This document shows, piece after piece, positions 21,761-33,047 of a stretch of 64,000 nt of DNA. How positions within the stretch are numbered: position 1 is the stretch's first letter; every line of letters starts with the position of its first letter. The position numbers and the translations under genes were made by a program. Where the stretch lies: contig JAHLWZ010000843.1 of assembly GCA_020536535.1 (NCBI GenBank), positions 1 through 64,000 of the forward strand, written 5' to 3'. The notes under the pieces are model-generated. The model was not told the origin of the DNA. It did no database searches and was given only the letters and a program-made list of their open reading frames with translations. The DNA comes from Pelomyxa schiedti. Lineage: Eukaryota > Protista > Evosea.

Positions 21761-24700
21761 CTACGACTGTAACATTTTGTTTACGATCCAGTCCAGTCCC
21801 TTTTTTCGGATGCAGTATATTAGAACATTACCAAATGAAAGGTGTGGAGATGAACCTCATATAGTCCATCACCAGAAGTAGCACAACAGGCCTGGACAAA
21901 CCACTTCCTTGTCCTTATGTGGTGCAGACCAAGTTGGTCAGTTAGTTCGCCTACCGGCATGGCAGCCGGCAAATCTTGTTTGTTTGCAAACACAAGCACA
22001 ACGGCATCGCGGAGTTCATCCTCGGACAGCATTTTCTGAAGCTCTTCGCTGGTTTCTCCTATGCGTTCCCTGTCATTCGAGTCTACAACGTACATAAGAC
22101 CCTGGGTGTTTTGGAAGTACTAATGAAAGTGAGTGAGAGAAAGAGTGTGAATGTTGGGGTTGTTTAGTGTAACCAAGTGAGTGTTCATACATGTCTCCAT
22201 AGGGGTCTAATTTTGTCTTCTATGGTGAATTAGTTGAGAACATAGTCAAAGTCGTATTGGAGCAAGTCAAGTTCTTACCGCCTCCAGTATCCCACACTGT
22301 AAGGTTGACGTTTTTGTAAGTTACTGTCTCAACATTGAATCCAATGGTAGGTACTACAATGAACAAAGTGCGTTAGAATCAAACCTGTTTTTGGCGCTCG
22401 GGATAGAACTTACTGGTGGTAACAATTTCACCAAGTTTAAGCTATCGAAGACTTAGGTGAGGGAAAATGATGATGTGGTCAACATACTTTATACAGAATA
22501 GTCGTCTTTCCTGCAGCATCTAAACCTGAGGGTGAATTGAGCAAAGGAAACAGTTGAAGGTATGGTTTATAGGTACGCATACCAACCATCAACAAGCGGA
22601 ATTCTTTCCTTTTCGGTAACCATCCTTGAACAGTTGTGAACGTGACTGAGGCCGCTCGCTGAAGGAGTGAGGGCCTTCGAGCATCTTCTTCATCCCGAGC
22701 TCTCAGTCTTTTAGCGAACTGGTGAGAGTGTGGCCAAATATGGAAGGAAGCTACGACCTTTCGTAATAAGTGTGAGTGACGGGATGGTTCATAAGATATC
22801 GAAGTTTCCAGATCTCTTGCCCTGCCAAGCTGCTCGTTCCAGAGGCTCTGGTTTATGTTAAGTGGTATTTTTTTCACTTTGAGAATGTACAGGGTCTCTG
22901 GAATCAACGTTTTGGCAATTTTGCATATTCGTCGGTTTGGAGAACCAAGTTCCGTAGCCTCCCAGTCATAGGCGGGGGATACCCTCACATCCCTCAACGT
23001 CTTAGATTGAGCTGGGGAAAAAAAGGAATACCTGGTGTATAGCACCCTCCATAATTCATTTGAGGAAGAGAGAACTCTGAAAGCACTACTTGTCCGCCCT
23101 ATGGATATGAGGTCCTAAAACTGGGATGAAAACTGGCAATGATCCATCAAAATTCAAACTTTGGCACTCAAGTACAGAAGAATCTCATGAAGAACTTCAC
23201 GAGGAAAATTCTTGAGGGTTCCAAAGATAGATTGTTGCTCCTGAGATGGCTTATTCATCTGACTGGAACCACCTGATATTGCCGCTGTATGCAACCACCC
23301 ACAAGAGACCTGAAAGTAGTTATTTGGGAAAATTGACGGAGTCCTGCATACCGCTTTAATATTCGTGTTAGACATCGTAAACGCTTCGACAAGCGTAGGT
23401 GCAATATACTCTTGTTTCAAAAATTGACCACACTGTCCATTTTTACTTGAACCAAAAGTGTATCTGTCTTTATGTTAAAAAGAAAATGAGAAACTGTTCT
23501 CAACTTGCATTTTTCCAGAACTTGTAACTATGGCACTATGTGCCGCACTAAATGCTCCATTTGCTGACATGGCGATAACTCTATCACCTCGTGTGCACAG
23601 TTCAACATTGAAGGAGTCAATAGGCCTGCAAAAATATGATTCCCAGTATTATCTTCCATCGCCCATACGTGGGAACCAGAATATTTTGATCGACGGTGTG
23701 GCCGCACTGGCTCCTTCTCCCCATTGATAACACTGTATTATGTAACCCCTCAGTACTTGAAGTTGGCACAGTAGCGAGCAGTGTGTGATTGTCACCACAT
23801 GCCACAATTTCAATTGCTGGAGTCCCTGTTGGCAAAGGAACTGGTTGTGGAGTCGTTCTATCAATGACATCGCCAAGCCCAAGCTGGCCAAACCTAAGAA
23901 AACGAGTGAGATCGTTAGCAGGAGATCGCTTTCGTACCTATTTGAACCACAAGTAAATACGGTACCAGTTTCCGTCATATATGCAACATGTTGACCACCG
24001 CAAGACACTTTCCTGATTGGTTGCGTGAGTTTAACTTGCTGGGGATTCTCTCTATCCTATTGGAAGAGTTATTAACAGAGAAACAAGATTTTATCCATAC
24101 TTTTGTGTCACCCAACCCAAGCTGCCCTTTAGAATTAGTGCCCCATGAGAAAGCACTACCATCAGAACAGATAACTACAGAAAAGGCACCACCAGCACTA
24201 ATGTGAGAAGGTCTCGAAAGAGATTCCAGTGGAGTATGAAGTGCCTGCACCACAGTTGGTGCTAGTGACTTGCCACATATTTCACCCCACATCCACACAT
24301 CACAGACGGGAGAAGCTTCAAGTGCGAGGCAGTGCATGCCACCACAAGCAATTTCAGCAATTACGTGGCCGTACAATCTAATAAGAAATAATTAAAATTC
24401 CCATGGAAGTTATATTGTCACATAAATAAGAGCCTAATACACACCCAACAACCGGGCGAGGGATTGGCTTCTCCTGACAAGCCCAAGGCGTTGCACCCAC
24501 CATATTATTGGTAGTGGCAGTAGCAGTAGCAGCAGAATTTGTAGCAGCACCTTTAGGCGGTGCTCCCTTTGCTGGGGTAGCGCCCTTGGCTGTTGCAGGA
24601 TTGGTTTTTGATGCAGTGACGGCGGAGGGATTTGGGGTGGGAGTGGATACAGGTGTAGTTGTTCCACTGCCGCCTCCGCAGGAGTATACTTCCCCTGTGG

Positions 24701-24937
24701 AAGACAGAATCAAGGTGACTGCACCACCACAGGAAACAGACTTAGCATTAACTCTGGAACCAAAAAGTGTAGCCACAAATGCTGGGCACTGTCTAAAAGC
24801 AAAAAAATGTTAATTTATTGTTTGCTTTTAAAAAAAGGCAAAACAAACATAGGTCCCTATGACCTTTCGATGGAATCACCGTGGCCAAGTTGGCCGTGGG
24901 AGGCAACGCCCCACGTGTAGACGAGGCCCGCCGGCAT
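21761..24937 (-). CDS. RCC1-repeat + F-box + C-terminal Arf GTPase fusion protein
   Basis: RCC1 repeats ([60 protein letters not shown]); F-box [26 protein letters not shown]; open frame into [74 protein letters not shown]. Confidence 0.88.
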
Positions 24938-25181
24938 TATGGGAGCCGGACGAGATTCAGGTGCTGAAGTCATTATAGTGTGAGTCTCGGGGTCGACATT
25001 GGTGGCGAATTTGGTGGTTACCAGCATGCTTCGGTTACGGACTCACAGGTTTTAACCGGTAAACCGTTTTACACAGTGTGTCTCTGGACTTATTGCAGAA
25101 AGGCTTTGCACAACCAGTATTGAGGGGTTGTTAGTAACACAAAGAGTCGCAAGTTCCCGGGGTAATCTGTGTCAGTACAGA

Positions 25182-28100
25182 ATGGAAAATCAGATTTGGG
25201 CGAATCCAGAACAAAACCCAAAATTACACGCCGCCACGGGGAAGAACGCAAAGAGGAAGAAGGCAGCCGCGAGGGCAGCTGCCGCAAACCGTGACGAATC
25301 CGACGAGAGTTCCTCTGACAACAGCGAAGCCCCAGAGGCCCCCGATTCCCCGAGGAGGGCCACGGGCAAGCCTGAGGACGACCCCGTCTCCTCCTCTGAG
25401 GAAAACGACCAACACGACGAAGGCGCGGGCGCCAGCGCGGCCGCCACCACGAGCAGGGGCAAGGGCGGGCGCGGGAAGAGCCGCGCGGCCCCCAAGCCCG
25501 CCGCGACCCGCACGGGCCCGGCGGCGGCTCCCCCTGCGCAGCCAGCCGCGGCGGCCCCCACTCCGGGCCGCAGGCAGGCACGCCCAGCGCGCAACCCCCA
25601 GCTGGCAGTGATCAGATTCCTGCGAGAGGAATGCAGCCGCCACAGGGCGGAGGCCAGCTCGAGCACCCCCACTGGGCCAAGTGCCACGACTGGTAGTACT
25701 GGTGCTGCTGCTGCTGCTGTTACGACCACTGCTAGTACGACGGCCACGAGCTGCGGGGGAGACGATTATGGGTGCGCGCGGGAGGCGCTTGAGAAGCTGC
25801 GGGAGAAGCACGGGGTGAGGGCCGCCGCCCATAATTCCCACCCGCAGCTGTTTGCCCTCAAGTACGTGCAGCACGAGTGCGCCCCTGAGAGACTGGCGGA
25901 CCTGAATGGCGTACCAGCTGGATGCAGGGGTCTGGTGCTGAGCCATTCGCGGAATTCCGGGGGTTGCGAGTGGGCCGTTGTTGCCAGGCCCTTTGACAAG
26001 TTTCTCAATTATGGGGAACCTTTGGTAATTGCATCTTTGTGTTGTTTCTGTTTAATCTCTTGCTGGTTCTGGTTTTATTTCTTTGGTATTCGAAAACCCT
26101 AAACAAAACAAAAAGGCTCCAGAGATGGATTGGGGTAAATGCAAGATATATGAAAAAATTGATGGAACTCTGTGCATTTTATACTTCTACAATGGTGAAT
26201 GGATAATGAGTACAGGCGGAAGTGCTGATGGAATGGGCCAAGTCAAGTCTGCTAGTGAGAACAATGGTCACCCAATTATTTCTGTCCCACCTTTTTTTTT
26301 AGGTACTTTGACTTTCTGTGATCTTTTTTGGAGAATATTTAAGAAAAGTGGTTACTCTACACCCTCATCACCAGAGGCAATTAATTACACTTTCATGTTT
26401 GAACTCGTCTCCCCTCTCAATCGGGTACTCATACCATATGACACTGAGGCTCTTTATCTACTTGGAGCTAGGTCGATTCAAACTGGTTCCGAACTCGATC
26501 CGGCGCAGGCAAGCAGATTAGCTGGTGTTCCCTACACATTGTGTCCACTGAGGGAAGGTCTATGCACCTACGAGCAGGTGATACATGCTCTTAGAATGTG
26601 TGACCCACTCAAGCATGAGGGGTTTGTAGCAGTTGATTACACACGTGGTATCAGGGTCAAAGTAAAACACCCTGCATATGTATGCATGCATCATGCACTG
26701 GGTGACAAGCACTGGGGTGCTGATAGATTAATAGAGATTGTGAGAAGTGCTGAAGTGGGTGAAGTTCTGGCATACTTCCCTGAACTGAAAGGAAGGATTG
26801 AGGAAATGGCTGACATCTATTCTAAAATAGAGCAGAAAATGACAACAGAATGGGAAGCCTGCAAGTCTATAGATAGGAAGAAATTTCAGATATTTTTGTG
26901 CAATACTCCATTCCCTGATACTATGGAAGCACTACGAAGCGGGAAATGTACCTCAGTTCGTGATTTCCTTGCCAGTGTTGAGATAAAGAAACTTCGAGAG
27001 ATGTTTGGTATCTCTTCCGGGAAAGAAAAAGACAAAAGAAAACGAAATAAGCGGGGGAAGGCACAAGAGAACGAGACCAACTTGGAGAATGGAACAAGTG
27101 AAGCAAACGAGCCTCTCGATCGGCTCGAGGAAATACATCCTCAATATAGGATAGTCCATGGCTCAGAGGACTCTGTGGATCTCGACGTAGTTTACATTGT
27201 TGCAAATATGCCCTCAGTAGCTCAGTGTCACGCTTTTTGCAACGCAGGGGCAAGTTCAAGCCCAGTAGAAAACCGAAACATCGCAACCGTGTCAAATGGA
27301 GTCATATCAAAGTGTCTAAAGGGGCTACCAGATGAACTAAACAATGCCATTAGAAGAACTTTCAAGCTCCACGTAGAAAACAATTCCCTAGTGTGCCCAA
27401 TTCTTAGGAATACAGGCAGAGATATCAATGGGAAAGCTAGAGTATCCCTGCAGTCCATCCTTGGGTTACTAATACACAACACAGATGCAGAAACTAGAGC
27501 AGGTAGGCATTTTCTGACACTTCTCAGAAATTAACTTGGAAAAGTAATCGAATCGGCTGTGAAAAGTGCCCTCCACTCGCAGGATATACAATCCATGGCT
27601 AATGCACTTAAGACCATTACTCTTCAAGCAGTTATCCCTGTACTCGGAGTTGAAGAACGCAAGCGGATTGCCTTTCAGGTTGGACAACTACTTGTAAGTT
27701 TCACTTGCATTCATTTTTAATTAATTTAAAACAGCTAGGCCTTGATTCAAAATGTCGAACTTTACACAAAGAAGGAAATCAGTGATTACTTCCCTGAAAC
27801 TCGCCCATTGTTGTATCGAAAGCCGGTGCTATCTCCAGAAGAAAGTGACCTGTTCATCCAGTCGCTGTAAGTTCTTAATGGCATTTAATGAATATTCACT
27901 CTACTAGTCTCCGATTATGTAATTCCATTTCATCTCGTAATACGACAGTTCCTCTGCAAATTCCTCCAGAATGCTTCGCCCTTCCCAAACCCATTGAGTC
28001 ACTTTGTATATTTGACTTTGATGCCACCCTTTTTGCTTCTCCTTCTCCAAATCCCTCTCTGTGGACTGAGTCGAGCCTGCGAATCTTGAACTCAACGTGG

Positions 28101-29290
28101 GTGTGTATCTGCTCACCTCATTTCAAGAAGGAATAACATTGTGAAGGAAGAAGGAGGCCTTAATTGGTTTGGTTCTGCTGAGTCATTAAATCCTCCTTAT
28201 GTACCGCAACTGGCTCCTGAGTCTTTTTGGACTGCCTCTCTTGTTTGTGCTCATGACTGTTTTTAATAATTCTAACACTACTTGAAAGGTCACCAGATTT
28301 AAAGCGATCTCTGGGTTGACAGGAAAAGTCCTCCTCACTGGCCGCACACAAATGCACTCTGCACGACTCCTAGACCTCCTTTCACAACAAGGCCTTCAAT
28401 TTGATTTGGTGATTGTGCGCGAGCTCCAACGCGCACCTGGTCACCAATCAGGCTTATCTGATTGCCTTCGCACAGTAATTGGGTCTTGGTGCATGCCCTC
28501 TCTTCGATTCAAACAGGAGGCAATTAAGCATCTGCTACAGGCCAATCCACATGTTCACACTATCGAGCTTTGGGATGATAATGAAGCACAGATGACTGAA
28601 ATAGCCAAGCACGCAACACTGTTTAGTTCACCAGGAACGACCACTTCTTCACACCTTGTGGTACCCCACAGAACGATTCTGTCCCAAACTGCGGAACGCG
28701 ACCTCGTATCGCGACTAATTGCCAGTTCTCCTAACAAATTCTCGCTCCATGAAACTACCTCCTACGTTGCAGCCGTACTGAACCCAGCCAGCAAAGAGAG
28801 GTTACTTTCAGCCATAACCATTCCAGAAGGCTGGACAATTCATGCCACGCACATGACTATTCACCTCGGTCCCGTGCGAAACAAACCCTCACGCGAATCC
28901 AAACCCAAAGCCAACCCCAAAGGTGCCAACAAAAAATCCGGCAAAACCTCAAAGGCAAACAAAAGGGGACCAGATAGCACAAATTCCGACGAAGAGGACA
29001 ACAACAATTCCACTGAATCAGTGCACTACAAACTAGGAGAGCAAATGGAAATAATAGCTACTGCAGTGGGAAGAACAGCCAAGGCTCTTGCTGTCAAAGT
29101 GGAGGGAGTTCCAACAAGCAGGAGATTGTGTGACACCGGTGGGGTACCACACGTCACAATTGCAACTAACACTGCTGGAGGCAAGCCAAAGGACAGCAAG
29201 GAGATTCACGCGTGGGAACCTCTTGCCGCTCCCATAACCCTCACCGGCCTAGTCACCGCTGTGCAACAGTTAAGCCTCACAGCGACGTGA
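25182..29290 (+). CDS. Multi-domain RNA repair protein: Rnl1-type RNA ligase + nucleotidyltransferase-like + HAD phosphatase + 2H phosphodiesterase
   Basis: Ligase: CRGLVL, ARPFDKFLNYGE, EKIDGT, FELVSP, LYLLGAR, EGFVAVD, RVKVKHPAY. NTase-like: HGSEDSVDLDV. HAD: IFDFDATLFASP, LLTGR, IELWDD. 2H: HMTI and HVTI. Short GT-AG introns join all parts in frame. Confidence 0.88.
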
Positions 29291-29449: not shown

Positions 29450-30377
29450 ATGGGAAACGGACCGTCGAAAGCAGAGCTCGAGGAGCTTCATAGACAGTTT
29501 GGAAGTACCTTTTCATAAGCCTCTTTGAAACAACAAAATTGCCCACCTTTCATACACATAACCGAAACCGTTTGCAAGTCGATTGAGAATTAAAACGCAA
29601 CAACGATGCGGCCATTGACTCGACCCATAAGTTAGCATCGAGGACCTCAAGACACACGCCAAGGCGTTCAGAGAGGTCAATGGCGCGATGACATTGGCAG
29701 ACTTTAGGAGATTCTCAATGGAGTCGTCGACGCAGCTACCACCAGGAGTCATTGAGAAGATATTTTTCGCTTTTGACAGGAACAGAGACGGGTTTGTTTC
29801 TGCCACCCCCCCCTTTTTTTTCCCCTTTTGCTCATTGGGACCAAAAGGAGAATAGATGTCAGAGAGTATTTGATGATGATATCCTTAACTAGAGGAGGAA
29901 CTCTTGGTAAGTCCAAATAATTGTTATAGCACAAAGTGTAACAGTGGGGGGGAAAAAAAAATTCCAGATGAGAAACTACAGGGTAAAAAAATGTGCTGAT
30001 GATACGTTCCATTCATTGTATTTCACAGCTTCATTTGATATCTTTGATTCCAACAGAGATGGGAAACTCGAGAAGTATGAAGTCCGAAGTCTACTTGAAG
30101 CCGCCAACGTCACAGTATCCTCCGCCCCTTAATTCCTTCTCTACTTAATGAATATTAGTATGCCGGTTCTATAAGCCTTGGACTTACGCCACAGATGGAA
30201 GCTCACGTAAATGATCTTGTTGAACAAACCTTTGAATTGTCAGATACCAATCATGTAGGTGATTCCATAATTTTTTTCAATTCCAACATGAAACAGGACG
30301 GTTTTATTGATAGGGAAGAATTTGTCCACGCCTTCAAGACACACCCCAAAGTACTTGAATTTTTCAAGCAGTTATGA
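29450..30377 (+). CDS. N-myristoylated EF-hand calcium sensor (NCS/recoverin/calcineurin B-like)
   Basis: MGNGPS myristoylation-type start; EF loops DRNRDGRIDVRE, DSNRDGKLEKYE and DTNHDGFIDREE; RGGTLDEKLQASFDIFD uses a 15-nt microexon at 29968-29982. Confidence 0.92.
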
Positions 30378-30651
30378 GACTCTAGCTCTCTATACAAGTA
30401 ATATAAAACACTATCCTATAAAATAGTTCTTTCCTCGAATCCCATCACTTTCTCATTCAACACCAATAATCACTCAAGACTTCCATGTTCGGAGGTTGGT
30501 CGTGTCTTGTGAAATGTTCCTTAGGCTCTGTGCCACTATCGAATTTCACTTTGTGGCTCTTCTTAGAATATAATGACGATTTTAATTCATGCTAAGTTTT
30601 GGATTGTACACAATAGGGAAAGAAGCCAACCAGTCTGCCTTTGTGGGGATG

Positions 30652-33047
30652 TCAGCTCTTTTTTCTCTGGGCTGTGTCTGTTTGGTTTTGTCTGGGGGAG
30701 GTGGTTTGTAGGGAGGGTGTTGTTGATGGGGTTGGGGTAGCGGCTGTTGGGTTCGGCAAGGCCGGTGAGGGTGCTGCTGGGACGGTGGAGGGAGTGGCAG
30801 ACGAGGGAGAGGATGTGGATGGTGTGCTTTGTTTTTGGAAGCAGCTGTCGCAAACCCGCTGCTTGAAGGTCTCCGAGGGAAGCATCAATTTGCTTTTGGA
30901 ACATCCACCACATACGACTTTCCCACATAGCCTGCAGTGGTGCTGTTTTCCGCGATGTAAGGGAAAGAACATGAAGAGAATGTGGAACATGCCCTTCTAT
31001 TGAGTATGCCAAAGTCAGTATCACATATCACGCAGTTACGTGTTTCCCCGTCGGGCTGATAGCGGTTTCTTCTTGTAAAAACGGAGAGGGGTTACTAACC
31101 TGCCACACAGGGGCCTCAAAAGACGACCCCTGATCGTTTGCTGGCTCCGCAATAACAGTGCCAGAACTGTCTTTTATAAATCGTTTCTTTTTAGATTTGA
31201 TCTTTTCATTCTTGAGTTAATGTAAATTCTAATGATTCTGTACAAACATCTTTCACAGCGTTTTGGAGGTCCGTAACCCAGGAGTTTTTCTCTTCAGGGG
31301 TTTCTGTATAGGCAACAAATGATTTCTTTGCTGAGGCAATCTTGTGGACCATCAGCAAGGCACTGTCTGTGTGGGAGTACAGACCGAAAAAGCGTTTTGC
31401 AGTTTATCAGTATCAGCAATATCTTCGATATGCTTTACTTCCTCGAGTTGTAGAACTACTTGTCTTCCACCGTCATATATCAGAATATCATTAAACAGGA
31501 AGAAGGTCCGTTTTTTGTCTGTTTTGCGGCACCTCTTCCATATTTGGCCTTCTCGTAAAAACACCCGATGTGGTTCCACAAGCTAGTAAAATAAGTTTAC
31601 TTTACATCACCAAAATTGTGATGACGCACATTGAACCCAGAGAGAGGAGAACTGAGTTTCTGTTGAATTTCAAGTAATTTGCGGCCATTTTCTTGTAGCC
31701 GGATAGAGTCATTGACCTGAGCTGCTACTTCTTTGAGTTTGTTAGTCGCACCCACGAGATTGCCATAGTCTGGGTGAGTTGGGGGGGTATGGGAGACAAA
31801 ATCCTATGCATTTTGGTTGGAAAGCGTTCCAAATTAAGAAGGGAAGATAAACCAGACACCTCAAGTAGAAGTTTATATCTGGGCAGTCGTTGTACTGGCA
31901 AAATCAAAAAAGAGGGTAAATTAAGGCCTTTGCATTTCGGTTCAGTGAGCTTATCCTTACAAAATGAGTTTTTTTGGGGGAAACTCGGTTGCTGGTACTT
32001 GGAGAAATTTGGTAAAAAAGACATTTTTCTCTAAATCGTCCAGAGTGGAAAAGCAGTTATTGTAATTGCATGCATAAGTACTGTATAACTTCAGGAAGGG
32101 AATCTGACAAAGAAAGTAAACACTAATTAGATGAGTGTTAGGAAATACAAATTCAAGGAATTTGTCCCCAATTAAAGTTGTGGGTGTCCATTCGTCCATC
32201 CTTTCCTCCAACCCAGCCAATAACAAGCAATTTAACTTACAAATAAAAGTTAGAAAATAAGTACAACTCTGAAGCAAGTCACCTGCCAAATTTCTTGTAT
32301 ATTAGAGAATAAGGCATAAAGTTTGTCTGGAGGTATCTGATCAGATTTCATCAGTGGCTTGAGAAACACCTTCTCAACTATTAGCAGATAAGTTGGCACA
32401 TATTAAAATGCAAACCTCTACGCAAACGTGTATCTGCTCAACATATGTCCTCTCAGTGGTAAGTATTTCTTTTGCAATGTGGTTTCGCTTGTCGTCCGGG
32501 GTGCTGTTTTTGTTAGTCACTGCTGCAGAAACCGGTTTTAGCTCTTCGTGGATCGGGTGTTGGGGCTTAAACAGCATTGTATTCCGGCTATACATGCTAT
32601 TGCGTGGAAGTGATGTTGTCCCAAGAACAGACTTTCTGACCTGAAATAAAATGAACAAGTGGAGATTGTGGGCGATTGGCGTACGTCGGCCCCACTGTTC
32701 GCAGAGTTTGCGCTGGTGCCATTGGCCGTTTGCCCACCGTTACTTCCGGGGGTTGTTCCGGAAGCGTATAGCCCCTGATGGGGCAGTGAGGTTGCCTTTG
32801 GCAAAAACCCTGATGTGTTTGGTAGAGGTACAACAGGACCAGTAACGGCCGATTTGCTGCGTGTCAGCTTAGCACTAGCAGATGTATTGGTGTTGGCGTT
32901 TGTGTTTGTGTTAGCGCCGTTTGCTGTGGTTGAAGACTGGGAGAGATTCGAAGAAGTGCTCGTAGCGGCACCACTAGCCGGCACACTGGCACGTTGCACA
33001 GATCCCGAAGCACCAAGAGACGATGACGACGACGTTTTGTGCAGCAT
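30652..33047 (-). CDS. FGD-like RhoGEF (DH) - PH - FYVE protein
   Basis: KRNHIAKEILTTERTYV, LPSFLILPVQRLPRYKLLL, RVFLREG..FFLFNDILIY, APVWQPD..CVIC..RRHHCRLCGKVVCGGCS..RVCDSC. Start and extreme 3' end uncertain (may extend to about 30457). Confidence 0.9.

What the first reader, a model, noticed from the sequence alone, without database searches (positions are those of the whole stretch)
25182..29290. Single-chain RNA repair machine: Rnl1 ligase + orphan nucleotidyltransferase + HAD + 2H, with no kinase
Seen: one spliced frame carries a T4 Rnl1-type ligase (adenylated-Lys motif KIDG at about 26155; motifs III-V intact), a polbeta-type GS-x-DxD signature (HGSEDSVDLDV, 27157-27189) followed by a conserved-looking helical block (KRIAFQVGQLLALIQNVELYTKKEISDYFP), a HAD domain (DFDAT at 28014, LLTGR, WDD) and a 2H domain (HMT 28850, HVT 29150). 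I see no P-loop kinase. Established: 2H plus HAD can convert a 2',3'-cyclic phosphate to 3'-OH; Rnl1 ligases need a 5'-phosphate; modular Swiss-army-knife RNA repair proteins exist in eukaryotes. Inference: an NTase sits where a 5'-kinase is expected, suggesting a different end-activation or post-repair marking chemistry, possibly for repairing ribotoxin-cleaved tRNA/rRNA. The ligase and NTase look phage/giant-virus/bacterial in style.
Basis: partly seen in the sequence, partly recalled or inferred. Interest (0 to 1): 0.8.

Follow-up and report, generated by a model that had tools for sequence, protein, structure and literature searches.

The report
Amoeba RNA-repair protein, unnamed nucleotide-adding enzyme
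An amoeba gene is predicted to make one long protein that joins an RNA ligase, a phosphatase, a probable ring-opening enzyme and an enzyme of a widespread but unnamed family that likely adds nucleotides to the cleaned 3' end of broken RNA before sealing; its bacterial relatives often sit beside an ordinary RNA kinase, so it likely does not replace one.

Summary
Seven GT-AG introns give one open frame of 1249-1258 aa, with all named motifs at the stated places. An RNA contig splices out the 27534 stop. NCBI holds the same protein from Pelomyxa schiedti. The Rnl1 ligase and the HAD_SAK_1 phosphatase pass Pfam cut-offs. The 2H domain rests on motifs only. No kinase was found.

The nucleotidyltransferase (NTase) is no orphan. 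It belongs to a family of 624 clusters that matches no Pfam, NCBIfam or PHROG model, folds like Pol-beta enzymes (pLDDT 94; nearest HalB, ANT(9)), and occurs in jumbo phages, bacteria, protists and giant viruses. Relatives are fused to Rnl1 or to a 3'-phosphatase, or lie beside ligases, Thg1, RlaP and tRNA arrays.

Most likely the enzyme adds NMP to the healed 3'-OH, and a separate kinase supplies the 5'-phosphate (untested). The amoeba copy lacks three family-conserved arginines. The key 2016 survey of RNA repair proteins was not readable.

The parts
25182..29290 (+). Whole gene, 8 exons, 1249-1258 aa. Exons in my model: 25182-26024, 26116-26266, 26303-27502, 27545-27693, 27739-27866, 27908-28096, 28128-28242, 28289-29290
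   Evidence: Open spliced frame; NCBI protein P0001 reproduced with two alternative introns
25182..25766 (+). N-terminal low-complexity region (about 195 aa; Ala/Ser/Thr/Lys-rich)
   Evidence: Sequence; no significant Pfam hit
25767..27015 (+). T4 Rnl1-type ATP-dependent RNA ligase: R249, K273, adenylated-Lys motif K295-I-D-G (26155), FMFEL, EGFV, KVK. Gly stands at the T4 Lys119 position; two bacterial relatives and L176 also lack that Lys
   Evidence: PF09511 over cut-off, TIGR02308 and phrog_562, alignment to T4 Rnl1, motif table; T4 residue numbers counted from that alignment, their roles recalled
27136..27938 (+). Pol-beta-fold nucleotidyltransferase of an unnamed family (aa 606-830): G614-S, D620/D622 (27178, 27184), N651-R-N653, KG-x-x-DE-x-NN, K705, K767-x-x-AFQ, ELYTK, R804. 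Lacks family Arg at 708, 711 and 730
27503..27544 (+). 42-base intron that holds the TAA at 27532-27534
   Evidence: RNA contig skips it, GT..AG
27867..27907 (+). Intron that joins the NTase to the HAD domain; the only domain-to-domain joint that rests on prediction alone
   Evidence: GTAAGT donor, TAG acceptor, used by both gene models; the NTase profile and the last helix run across it; no RNA cover
27999..28726 (+). HAD phosphatase of the Swiss-army-knife family 1: D856-F-D-A-T (28014), T933, K991, D1012-D1013
   Evidence: PF10307, 62.2 bits over profile positions 1-200 of 203; coordinates
28751..29287 (+). Probable 2H phosphoesterase: H-M-T (28850) and H-V-T (29150), split by a Lys/Asn/Glu-rich insert of about 50 aa
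   Evidence: Motifs; weak PF08302 match, E 0.05-0.1; NCBI name 2'-5' RNA ligase; fold not obtained

Best explanation
This is a spliced amoeba gene predicted to make a single-chain RNA repair protein: the probable 2H domain would open a 2',3'-cyclic phosphate, the HAD domain would remove the phosphate, the nucleotidyltransferase likely adds one or a few NMPs to the freed 3'-OH, and the Rnl1 ligase would seal this to a 5'-phosphate likely supplied by a separate kinase. Shown: the reading frame, one intron in RNA, the ligase and HAD family matches, the Pol-beta fold of the model, and the family's repeated fusion and linkage to RNA ligases, 3'-phosphatases and kinases. Inferred: every catalytic step, the order of steps, the substrate (probably tRNA cut and trimmed by nucleases), and the kinase working in trans. 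It would work like RlaP, which restores nucleotides lost at a break, but it is not an RlaP member.
For: (1) Fold: the top three whole-domain matches among 48,161 chains are Pol-beta NTases: HalB Z 8.6 (rmsd 4.8, 165 aligned), AAD(9) Z 8.3, ANT-3,9 Z 7.7. Foldseek ranks the same enzymes first, best E 5e-3. G-S and D-x-D are kept in 147-148 of 151 relatives. (2) Company kept: of 55 sequence groups (191 loci, linked at 60% identity), 14 have an RNA ligase fused or within the fetched flank, 4 a fused 3'-phosphatase HAD, 8 a P-loop kinase, 5 RlaP, 4 Thg1 and 14 tRNA genes; 31 have at least one of these. Rnl1 is found in 0 of 14 control genomes. (3) Fusion partners seen: Rnl1 (8 of 49 proteins scanned), HAD_PNKP (3 of 49) and weak NT5C-type HAD (2 of 49). 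No fusion to a kinase was seen. A phosphatase partner makes exactly the 3'-OH that such an enzyme needs. (4) The kinase coexists: Flavobacterium operon TROVE- or TerD-like gene, NTase, Rnl1, Hen1, Pnkp-type ligase, kinase-HAD; NTase-kinase-Rnl1 triplets in L013 and L154, and Rnl1, one gene, NTase, kinase in L127. (5) Precedent: RlaP adds 1-2 NMP to RNA 3'-OH, needs no 5'-OH, and prefers the cut end of a tRNA mimic (bioRxiv 10.64898/2025.12.29.696909). Mucorales use a stand-alone kinase with a stand-alone ligase (PMC11571804 abstract). Clp1-family RNA kinases occur in 350 of 358 eukaryote genomes (PMC10598085).
Against: No activity is measured for any member. The structural neighbours act on aminoglycosides or make self-primed DNA, not RNA 3' ends, and their Z scores are close to the level that unrelated models reach (note). 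The strand that usually carries the third carboxylate has N-R-N (N653 in 150 of 151); that position is assigned from the secondary structure and recalled fold knowledge, not from coordinates. The amoeba copy has V, Q and E where 136, 146 and 146 of 151 relatives have Arg, so it may be weak or altered. 24 of 55 groups show no RNA-related neighbour, and RlaP often sits in the same loci, which asks why two similar enzymes are kept. Many protist and some bacterial members keep the NTase beside a ligase remnant with no K-x-D-G motif (0 of 16), so it can work without a fused active ligase. No Pelomyxa kinase could be searched for (no genome held). The 2H domain is unproven.
Confidence: 0.5

Rival explanations
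1. The family is an RNA-repair NTase, but the amoeba domain is a weakened or non-catalytic copy that only binds nucleotide or RNA; the chain works as a plain heal-and-seal enzyme with a kinase in trans.
For: Three family-conserved Arg are lost (708, 711, 730), one to Glu, at places read in RNA. Long end branch, 1.06 against a median of 0.53.
Against: G-S, D-x-D, N-R-N, KG-x-x-DE-x-NN, K705, K767, AFQ, ELYTK and R804 are all kept. Three other members also lack two of these Arg (P0099, P0102, P0143), so this may be a change of specificity.
Confidence: 0.15
2. The NTase works on tRNA or other RNA 3' termini apart from ligation: rebuilding a clipped CCA end, or tailing ends to mark or protect them.
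For: tRNA genes lie within the flank in 14 of 55 groups and 34 of 72 viral loci (redundant). Rnl1 is found in only 4 of 16 carrier phage records. Members with a dead ligase remnant exist.
Against: No null was computed for tRNA proximity in tRNA-rich jumbo phages. 13 of 16 carrier phage records have a PF09414 ligase-family match, several within 3-7 kb of the NTase (that family also rings in 6 of 14 controls). No CCA-enzyme fold match was listed.
Confidence: 0.13
3. The NTase nucleotidylates a protein or itself, or makes a short oligonucleotide signal: for example it switches off a ribotoxin by AMPylation (as MNT antitoxins do, recalled) or makes a self-primed chain like HalB.
For: The best structural match is HalB, which makes oligo-dA primed on its own tyrosine (review PMC13434031, one passage). 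An MNT-type chain is a weaker match, Z 5.3.
Against: No conserved toxin or effector neighbour; the recurring partners are RNA end-healing enzymes. The candidate Tyr in ELYTK is Phe in 17 of 151.
Confidence: 0.11
4. One reading: the NTase replaces the 5'-kinase by activating a 5'-OH (for example by pyrophosphoryl transfer followed by trimming), so the chain seals cyclic-phosphate/5'-OH breaks alone.
For: No kinase in this chain. None in the loci of the 3 groups with NTase fused to intact Rnl1. In 2 of the 4 genomes behind such fusions the only AAA_33 match is a 501-529 aa protein, one of them an APH fusion (incomplete assemblies). The NTase-HAD fusion mirrors T4 kinase-HAD (17 of 80 metagenome loci). 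The active site is atypical: a 4-residue G-S to D-x-D gap in all 146 rows scored, and N-R-N.
Against: Kinase in the same locus in 22 of 23 Flavobacterium loci and in 4 of 7 groups with a separate Rnl1. A stand-alone kinase lies two genes from the NTase-HAD fusion in L131, L140 and L156. Ordinary NMP transfer to a 5'-OH gives a blocked 5'-5' link (inference).
Confidence: 0.06
5. Two genes: ligase-NTase ending at the TAA at 27868-27870, and a separate HAD-2H gene.
For: No RNA covers 27630-28366. An ATG at 27888 is in frame with the HAD exon.
Against: Only 17 bases would lie between that stop and that ATG. The donor is a consensus GTAAGT, both gene models splice here, and the NTase's last helix continues across the joint.
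Confidence: 0.05

Closest known systems
Eukaryotic 'Swiss-army-knife' RNA repair proteins (Pfam HAD_SAK_1, PF10307; Burroughs and Aravind 2016, not readable here)
   Same: Carries the HAD_SAK_1 domain over its cut-off, together with an RNA ligase and a probable 2H domain, in one chain.
   Different: Carries an NTase of a family with no Pfam, NCBIfam or PHROG model, and no kinase. No second protein with this layout was found (both searches were crowded and missed known relatives, so this is weak).
RlaP (PF10127), RNA-ligase-associated Pol-beta NTase
   Same: Pol-beta fold, G-S and D-x-D; lies beside RNA ligases in bacteria and jumbo phages; proposed here to do the same kind of step.
   Different: No sequence kinship detected: 0 of 105 members list PF10127 among the 25 families shown at E 0.1 (9 single-member families not shown); hhalign probability 1.7% over 15 columns. 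RlaP genes occur beside it as separate genes (5 of 55 groups).
T4 Pnkp + Rnl1; bacterial Pnkp1-Rnl-Hen1 (PMC4411300); fungal Trl1
   Same: Heal-and-seal logic: phosphatase or cyclic phosphodiesterase plus an ATP-dependent ligase. The Flavobacterium operons that hold the NTase also hold Hen1, a Pnkp-type ligase and a kinase-HAD.
   Different: These supply a P-loop kinase; this chain has none and has the NTase. Its HAD is of the SAK family, not the Pnkp family.
Hailong HalB and aminoglycoside adenylyltransferases AAD(9)/ANT
   Same: Nearest solved folds: NTase core plus a helical bundle (Z 7.7-8.6).
   Different: 8-10% identity, rmsd about 5 A, no shared partner genes. A shared fold shows no shared substrate.

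Membership tests
T4 Rnl1-type RNA ligase | K-x-D-G motif I and motifs III, IV, V with an Rnl1 profile match | tested here: met
   PF09511 43.1 bits against cut-off 28.3; KIDG, FMFEL, EGFV and KVK align to T4 Rnl1
T4 Rnl1-type RNA ligase | Lys at the T4 Lys119 position (role recalled) | tested here: not met
   S-T-G-G instead of S-K-G; also absent in bacterial relatives L013, L154 and L176, so it looks like a subfamily trait
T4 Rnl1-type RNA ligase | Lys adenylylation and sealing of 3'-OH/5'-P RNA | not testable with these tools
   Needs biochemistry
HAD_SAK_1 phosphatase | Profile match with D-x-D-x-T, T, K and DD motifs | tested here: met
   62.2 bits against cut-off 25.6 over profile positions 1-200 of 203; motifs placed
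2H phosphoesterase | Two H-x-T/S motifs | tested here: met
   HMT 28850 and HVT 29150
2H phosphoesterase | Significant profile or fold match | tested here: inconclusive
   PF08302 E 0.05-0.1, below cut-off; small local profile not above background; single-sequence model pLDDT 39
Pol-beta nucleotidyltransferase superfamily | Core fold with G-S followed by D-x-D on the second strand | tested here: met
   Model pLDDT 94; top whole-domain matches are all Pol-beta NTases; ESM Atlas feature neighbours of P0002 include PF01909 clusters at 0.94; conservation
Pol-beta nucleotidyltransferase superfamily | Third catalytic carboxylate on the next core strand (recalled) | tested here: inconclusive
RlaP (PF10127) | Match to the PF10127 profile | tested here: not met
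   No hit for P0001, P0002 (E up to 1) or 49 relatives (E up to 0.01), and none among the 25 families shown for 105 aligned members; hhalign 1.7%
RlaP (PF10127) | Genomic association with RNA ligases | tested here: met
   14 of 55 groups
RlaP (PF10127) | Adds 1-2 NMP to RNA 3'-OH | not testable with these tools
   Needs biochemistry
Trl1 / Pnkp trifunctional repair enzymes | P-loop polynucleotide 5'-kinase domain | tested here: not met
   No Pfam kinase hit; kinase profile finds nothing in P0001 or the window

The most novel reading that the evidence does not exclude
The unnamed family does a step not yet known in RNA repair. With its shortened G-S..D-x-D loop and Asn in place of the third acid, it activates a 5'-OH end or marks the healed junction, so that NTase-Rnl1 and NTase-HAD fusions, and this four-domain amoeba chain, repair cyclic-phosphate/5'-OH breaks without a P-loop kinase or make the repair nuclease-proof.
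Probability: 0.1. Interest if true: 0.9.

Novelty: new variant of a known kind. Interest (0 to 1): 0.58.

Why it matters
The amoeba gene leads to a nucleotidyltransferase family of at least 624 clusters with no model in Pfam, NCBIfam or PHROGs. It recurs with RNA ligases, 3'-phosphatases, kinases and tRNA arrays in jumbo phages, bacteria, amoebae and giant viruses. If it extends healed 3' ends, it is a second, independent answer (beside RlaP) to toxins that cut out nucleotides, and the first traced here into a eukaryotic single-chain repair protein. Small stand-alone members (about 240 aa) make the question directly testable. If it acts on another group (5'-OH, 2'-OH, protein), it would be new repair chemistry.

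Tried and rejected
No whole genome is held, so a Pelomyxa kinase elsewhere could not be sought. Searches for a second four-domain protein found only P0001; both scored only about 8000 candidates, and one search missed known 554-667 aa relatives, so this shows no absence. The representative search listed only the best 150 of 624. PDB sequence search with the NTase profile gave nothing relevant. 2H tests led nowhere firm: a single-sequence fold of the last exon was poor (pLDDT 39); phage and Bacteroidota searches gave one weak hit each; a four-row local profile, one row of which was not a 2H protein, scored 5-7 bits, within background. RNA contigs leave 25182-26643 and 27630-28366 uncovered even at 80% likeness; holes prove nothing. 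AAA_33 counts in whole phage and bacterial records are weak, because the family rings in 8-14 of 14 controls. A single Flavobacterium kinase found nothing in 5 genomes, and a small phage-type kinase nothing in 4 records. A viral scan with the fusion alignment found nothing. Origin is unresolved: FastTree put the amoeba NTase beside P0117/P0002, IQ-TREE among protist-type members with support 78-90, unstarred (50 chosen rows of 152). Contamination from a symbiont or virus was rejected: the gene has spliceosomal-type introns and lies between RCC1-repeat, EF-hand and FYVE/PH genes. Literature searches showed no paper on this family or layout, but the 2016 survey (PMC5062991) is not held, and it or its supplements may list it.
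Full report
1. The observation. The region is an intron-containing eukaryotic gene. A search with the NTase exon returned the NCBI protein P0001, named 2'-5' RNA ligase of Pelomyxa schiedti, 1249 aa. It is reproduced exactly with five of my introns and two shifted ones; it comes from the same assembly, so it is a second model, not independent proof. The other six introns have no RNA cover. The introns inside the ligase, NTase and HAD domains are backed by homology across them. The NTase-to-HAD joint (27867-27907) rests on a consensus donor, on both models and on a helix that runs across it. The flanking genes carry RCC1, EF-hand, FYVE and PH domains, so this is host DNA.

2. The domains. Ligase: PF09511 at 43.1 bits (cut-off 28.3), and the only PDB sequence hits are T4 Rnl1, with motifs I, III, IV and V aligned. 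The T4 Lys119 position is Gly, and three bacterial relatives also lack that Lys. HAD: PF10307 (HAD_SAK_1) at 62.2 bits over nearly the whole profile. 2H: two H-x-T motifs around a low-complexity insert. Support beyond the motifs is weak (PF08302, E 0.05-0.1), and my fold and profile tests were inconclusive. Kinase: none by Pfam or by a profile of 31 polynucleotide kinases, in the protein or in the window.

3. The NTase is a family. The one other hit, P0002, pulled 624 clusters at E 0.001, of which 150 were listed. A profile of 151 such proteins matches P0001 606-830 at E 1e-52. The family has no real match in Pfam (105 members scanned), NCBIfam (7 carriers among 19 proteins) or PHROGs (5 carriers among 6 proteins); in the last two only the fused ligases matched. 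The model from 105 sequences has pLDDT 94. Its best whole-domain matches among 48,161 chains are HalB (Z 8.6, rmsd 4.8, 165 aligned), AAD(9) (8.3) and ANT-3,9 (7.7); Foldseek ranks the same enzymes first at E 5e-3 or weaker. These scores are modest, but they agree with the conserved G-S and D-x-D. The family is atypical: four residues between G-S and D-x-D in all 146 rows scored, N-R-N on the strand where a third acid is expected, and an invariant KG-x-x-DE-x-NN. The amoeba copy keeps these but has V, Q and E at three Arg positions kept in 136, 146 and 146 of 151 relatives. Members occur in jumbo phages (Lak, Bacillus phage G, SCTP-2), in bacteria (4 of 401 genomes sampled from the Flavobacterium phylum), in Balamuthia, Pellita, Arcella and Willaertia, and by structure in Klosneuvirus, Indivirus and Terrestrivirus proteins of 478-1039 aa.

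4. The company it keeps. Of 49 relatives scanned (mostly the longest of the 150 listed), 8 are fused to an Rnl1 ligase, which keeps K-x-D-G-S, 3 to a Pnkp-type HAD phosphatase and 2 weakly to an NT5C-type HAD. In Flavobacterium, one or two NTase genes sit in an RNA repair operon with a TROVE- or TerD-like gene, Rnl1, Hen1, a Pnkp-type ligase, a kinase-HAD and often RlaP (the TerD label is recalled from motifs). Of the 23 such loci with the NTase, 23 hold Rnl1 and 22 hold a Walker-A kinase; they are one genus and count as one event. Over all 191 loci, merged into 55 groups at 60% identity, 14 groups have an RNA ligase (7 separate Rnl1, 3 fused Rnl1, 4 Rnl2-like), 8 a kinase, 4 a fused HAD, 5 RlaP, 4 Thg1 and 14 tRNAs; 24 have none of these. 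Features are pooled over a group's members, flanks are 5-7 kb and many contigs are short. The local profiles were built from neighbours found in these loci; representatives of the ligase, kinase, HAD, RlaP and Thg1 sets were confirmed by Pfam. Rnl1 rings in 0 of 14 control genomes, so the ligase link is far above chance. The tRNA link has no null and is only suggestive.

5. Does it replace the kinase? Mostly not. Of the 7 groups with a separate Rnl1, 4 also have the kinase in the locus, and NTase-kinase-Rnl1 triplets occur in L013 and L154. A stand-alone kinase lies two genes from the NTase-HAD fusion in L131, L140 and L156. On the other side, none of the 3 groups with fused intact Rnl1 has a kinase in the locus, 2 of the 4 incomplete genomes behind them show only a 501-529 aa AAA_33 protein, and the NTase-HAD fusion resembles T4 Pnkp with the kinase exchanged. 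Chemically, NMP transfer to a 5'-OH would give a 5'-5' link, not a ligatable phosphate (inference). A kinase in trans has precedent in Mucorales (PMC11571804, abstract seen), and Clp1-family kinases are found in 350 of 358 eukaryote genomes (PMC10598085, passages seen). Pelomyxa itself could not be checked.

6. Mechanism. Most likely (0.5): 2H opens the cyclic phosphate, HAD removes the phosphate, the NTase adds one or a few NMPs to the 3'-OH to make up for trimmed nucleotides, a separate kinase makes the 5'-phosphate, and Rnl1 seals. All steps are inferred. The model is RlaP, shown to add 1-2 NMP to RNA 3'-OH and to prefer the cut end of a tRNA mimic (bioRxiv 10.64898/2025.12.29.696909; abstract, introduction and first half of results seen). 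This family is not RlaP. Rivals: a weakened amoeba copy (0.15); work on tRNA or other 3' ends without ligation (0.13), favoured by members whose ligase remnant has no K-x-D-G (0 of 16); protein or self nucleotidylation as in HalB (0.11; review PMC13434031, one passage seen); 5'-end activation (0.06); two genes (0.05).

7. What is known. Multi-domain eukaryotic repair proteins with this HAD are a described class (Pfam name; PMC7824862 section 3.4.9 seen, which names RlaP, CCA-adding enzymes and Thg1 as the repair NTases of jumbo phages and no other). The kinase-HAD, ligase and Hen1 trio matches the Pnkp1-Rnl-Hen1 system (PMC4411300, start of abstract and two passages seen). Seven searches showed no paper on this family or layout. 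The 2016 survey by Burroughs and Aravind, the most likely place for it, was not available, nor were its supplements, so novelty is provisional. Earlier notes of this scan describe other protist and viral repair fusions, most with a kinase; they are unchecked. No second protein with this four-domain order was found, by weak searches. Origin is unresolved.

8. Verdict. A real gene and a new arrangement within a known class, and the entry point to an unnamed, widespread RNA-repair-linked NTase family. The 'no kinase, so new chemistry' reading is unlikely but not excluded. Interest 0.58.

Noticed in passing
L012:4345-13498 and 22 other Flavobacterium loci: A large RNA repair island: divergent WYL regulator, a 746-aa RING/TerD-like or TROVE gene, one or two copies of the unnamed NTase, Rnl1, Hen1, a Pnkp-type ligase, kinase-HAD, TatD and often RlaP. 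The second NTase paralog has a changed core (TKSWIDSLNN in place of KG-x-x-DE-x-NN).
   Followed up: partly
L113:5004-6185, L140:4995-7430, L143, L157, L197: Recurrent NTase-HAD_PNKP fusion (17 of 80 metagenome loci, 4 groups) in what appear to be jumbo phages; it looks like T4 Pnkp with the kinase exchanged, and a stand-alone kinase lies nearby in three loci.
   Followed up: partly
P0045, P0055, P0060, P0099, P0129 and P0027-type proteins: Protist members (Balamuthia, Pellita, Arcella, Willaertia) and some others carry the NTase followed by a decayed Rnl1-like remnant with no catalytic K-x-D-G; some add an N-terminal NT5C-like HAD.
   Followed up: partly
L003, L004, L070, L083, L084: In Lak and other jumbo phages the NTase gene lies in or beside tRNA arrays, once with tmRNA (L070) and once with Thg1 and RlaP (L084).
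   Followed up: partly
BFVD entries A0A1V0SII7, A0A1V0SCP1, A0A3G4ZP14: Giant-virus proteins of 478-1039 aa hold the same fold (TMq 0.65-0.77); their other domains were not seen.
   Followed up: no
window 25213 and 28969: One contig of run X4 lacks 2 bases at 25213, near the start of the gene. Runs X1 and X4 have 3 extra bases behind 28969, in frame, inside the 2H insert. Alleles, strains or assembly errors.
   Followed up: no
window 22479-25042 (minus), 29450-30377 (plus), 30587-31600 (minus): Ordinary neighbours: a divergent RCC1-repeat gene whose 3' part shows a small-GTPase-like motif (read from the ORF list), an EF-hand calcium-binding gene and a PH/FYVE gene.
   Followed up: no
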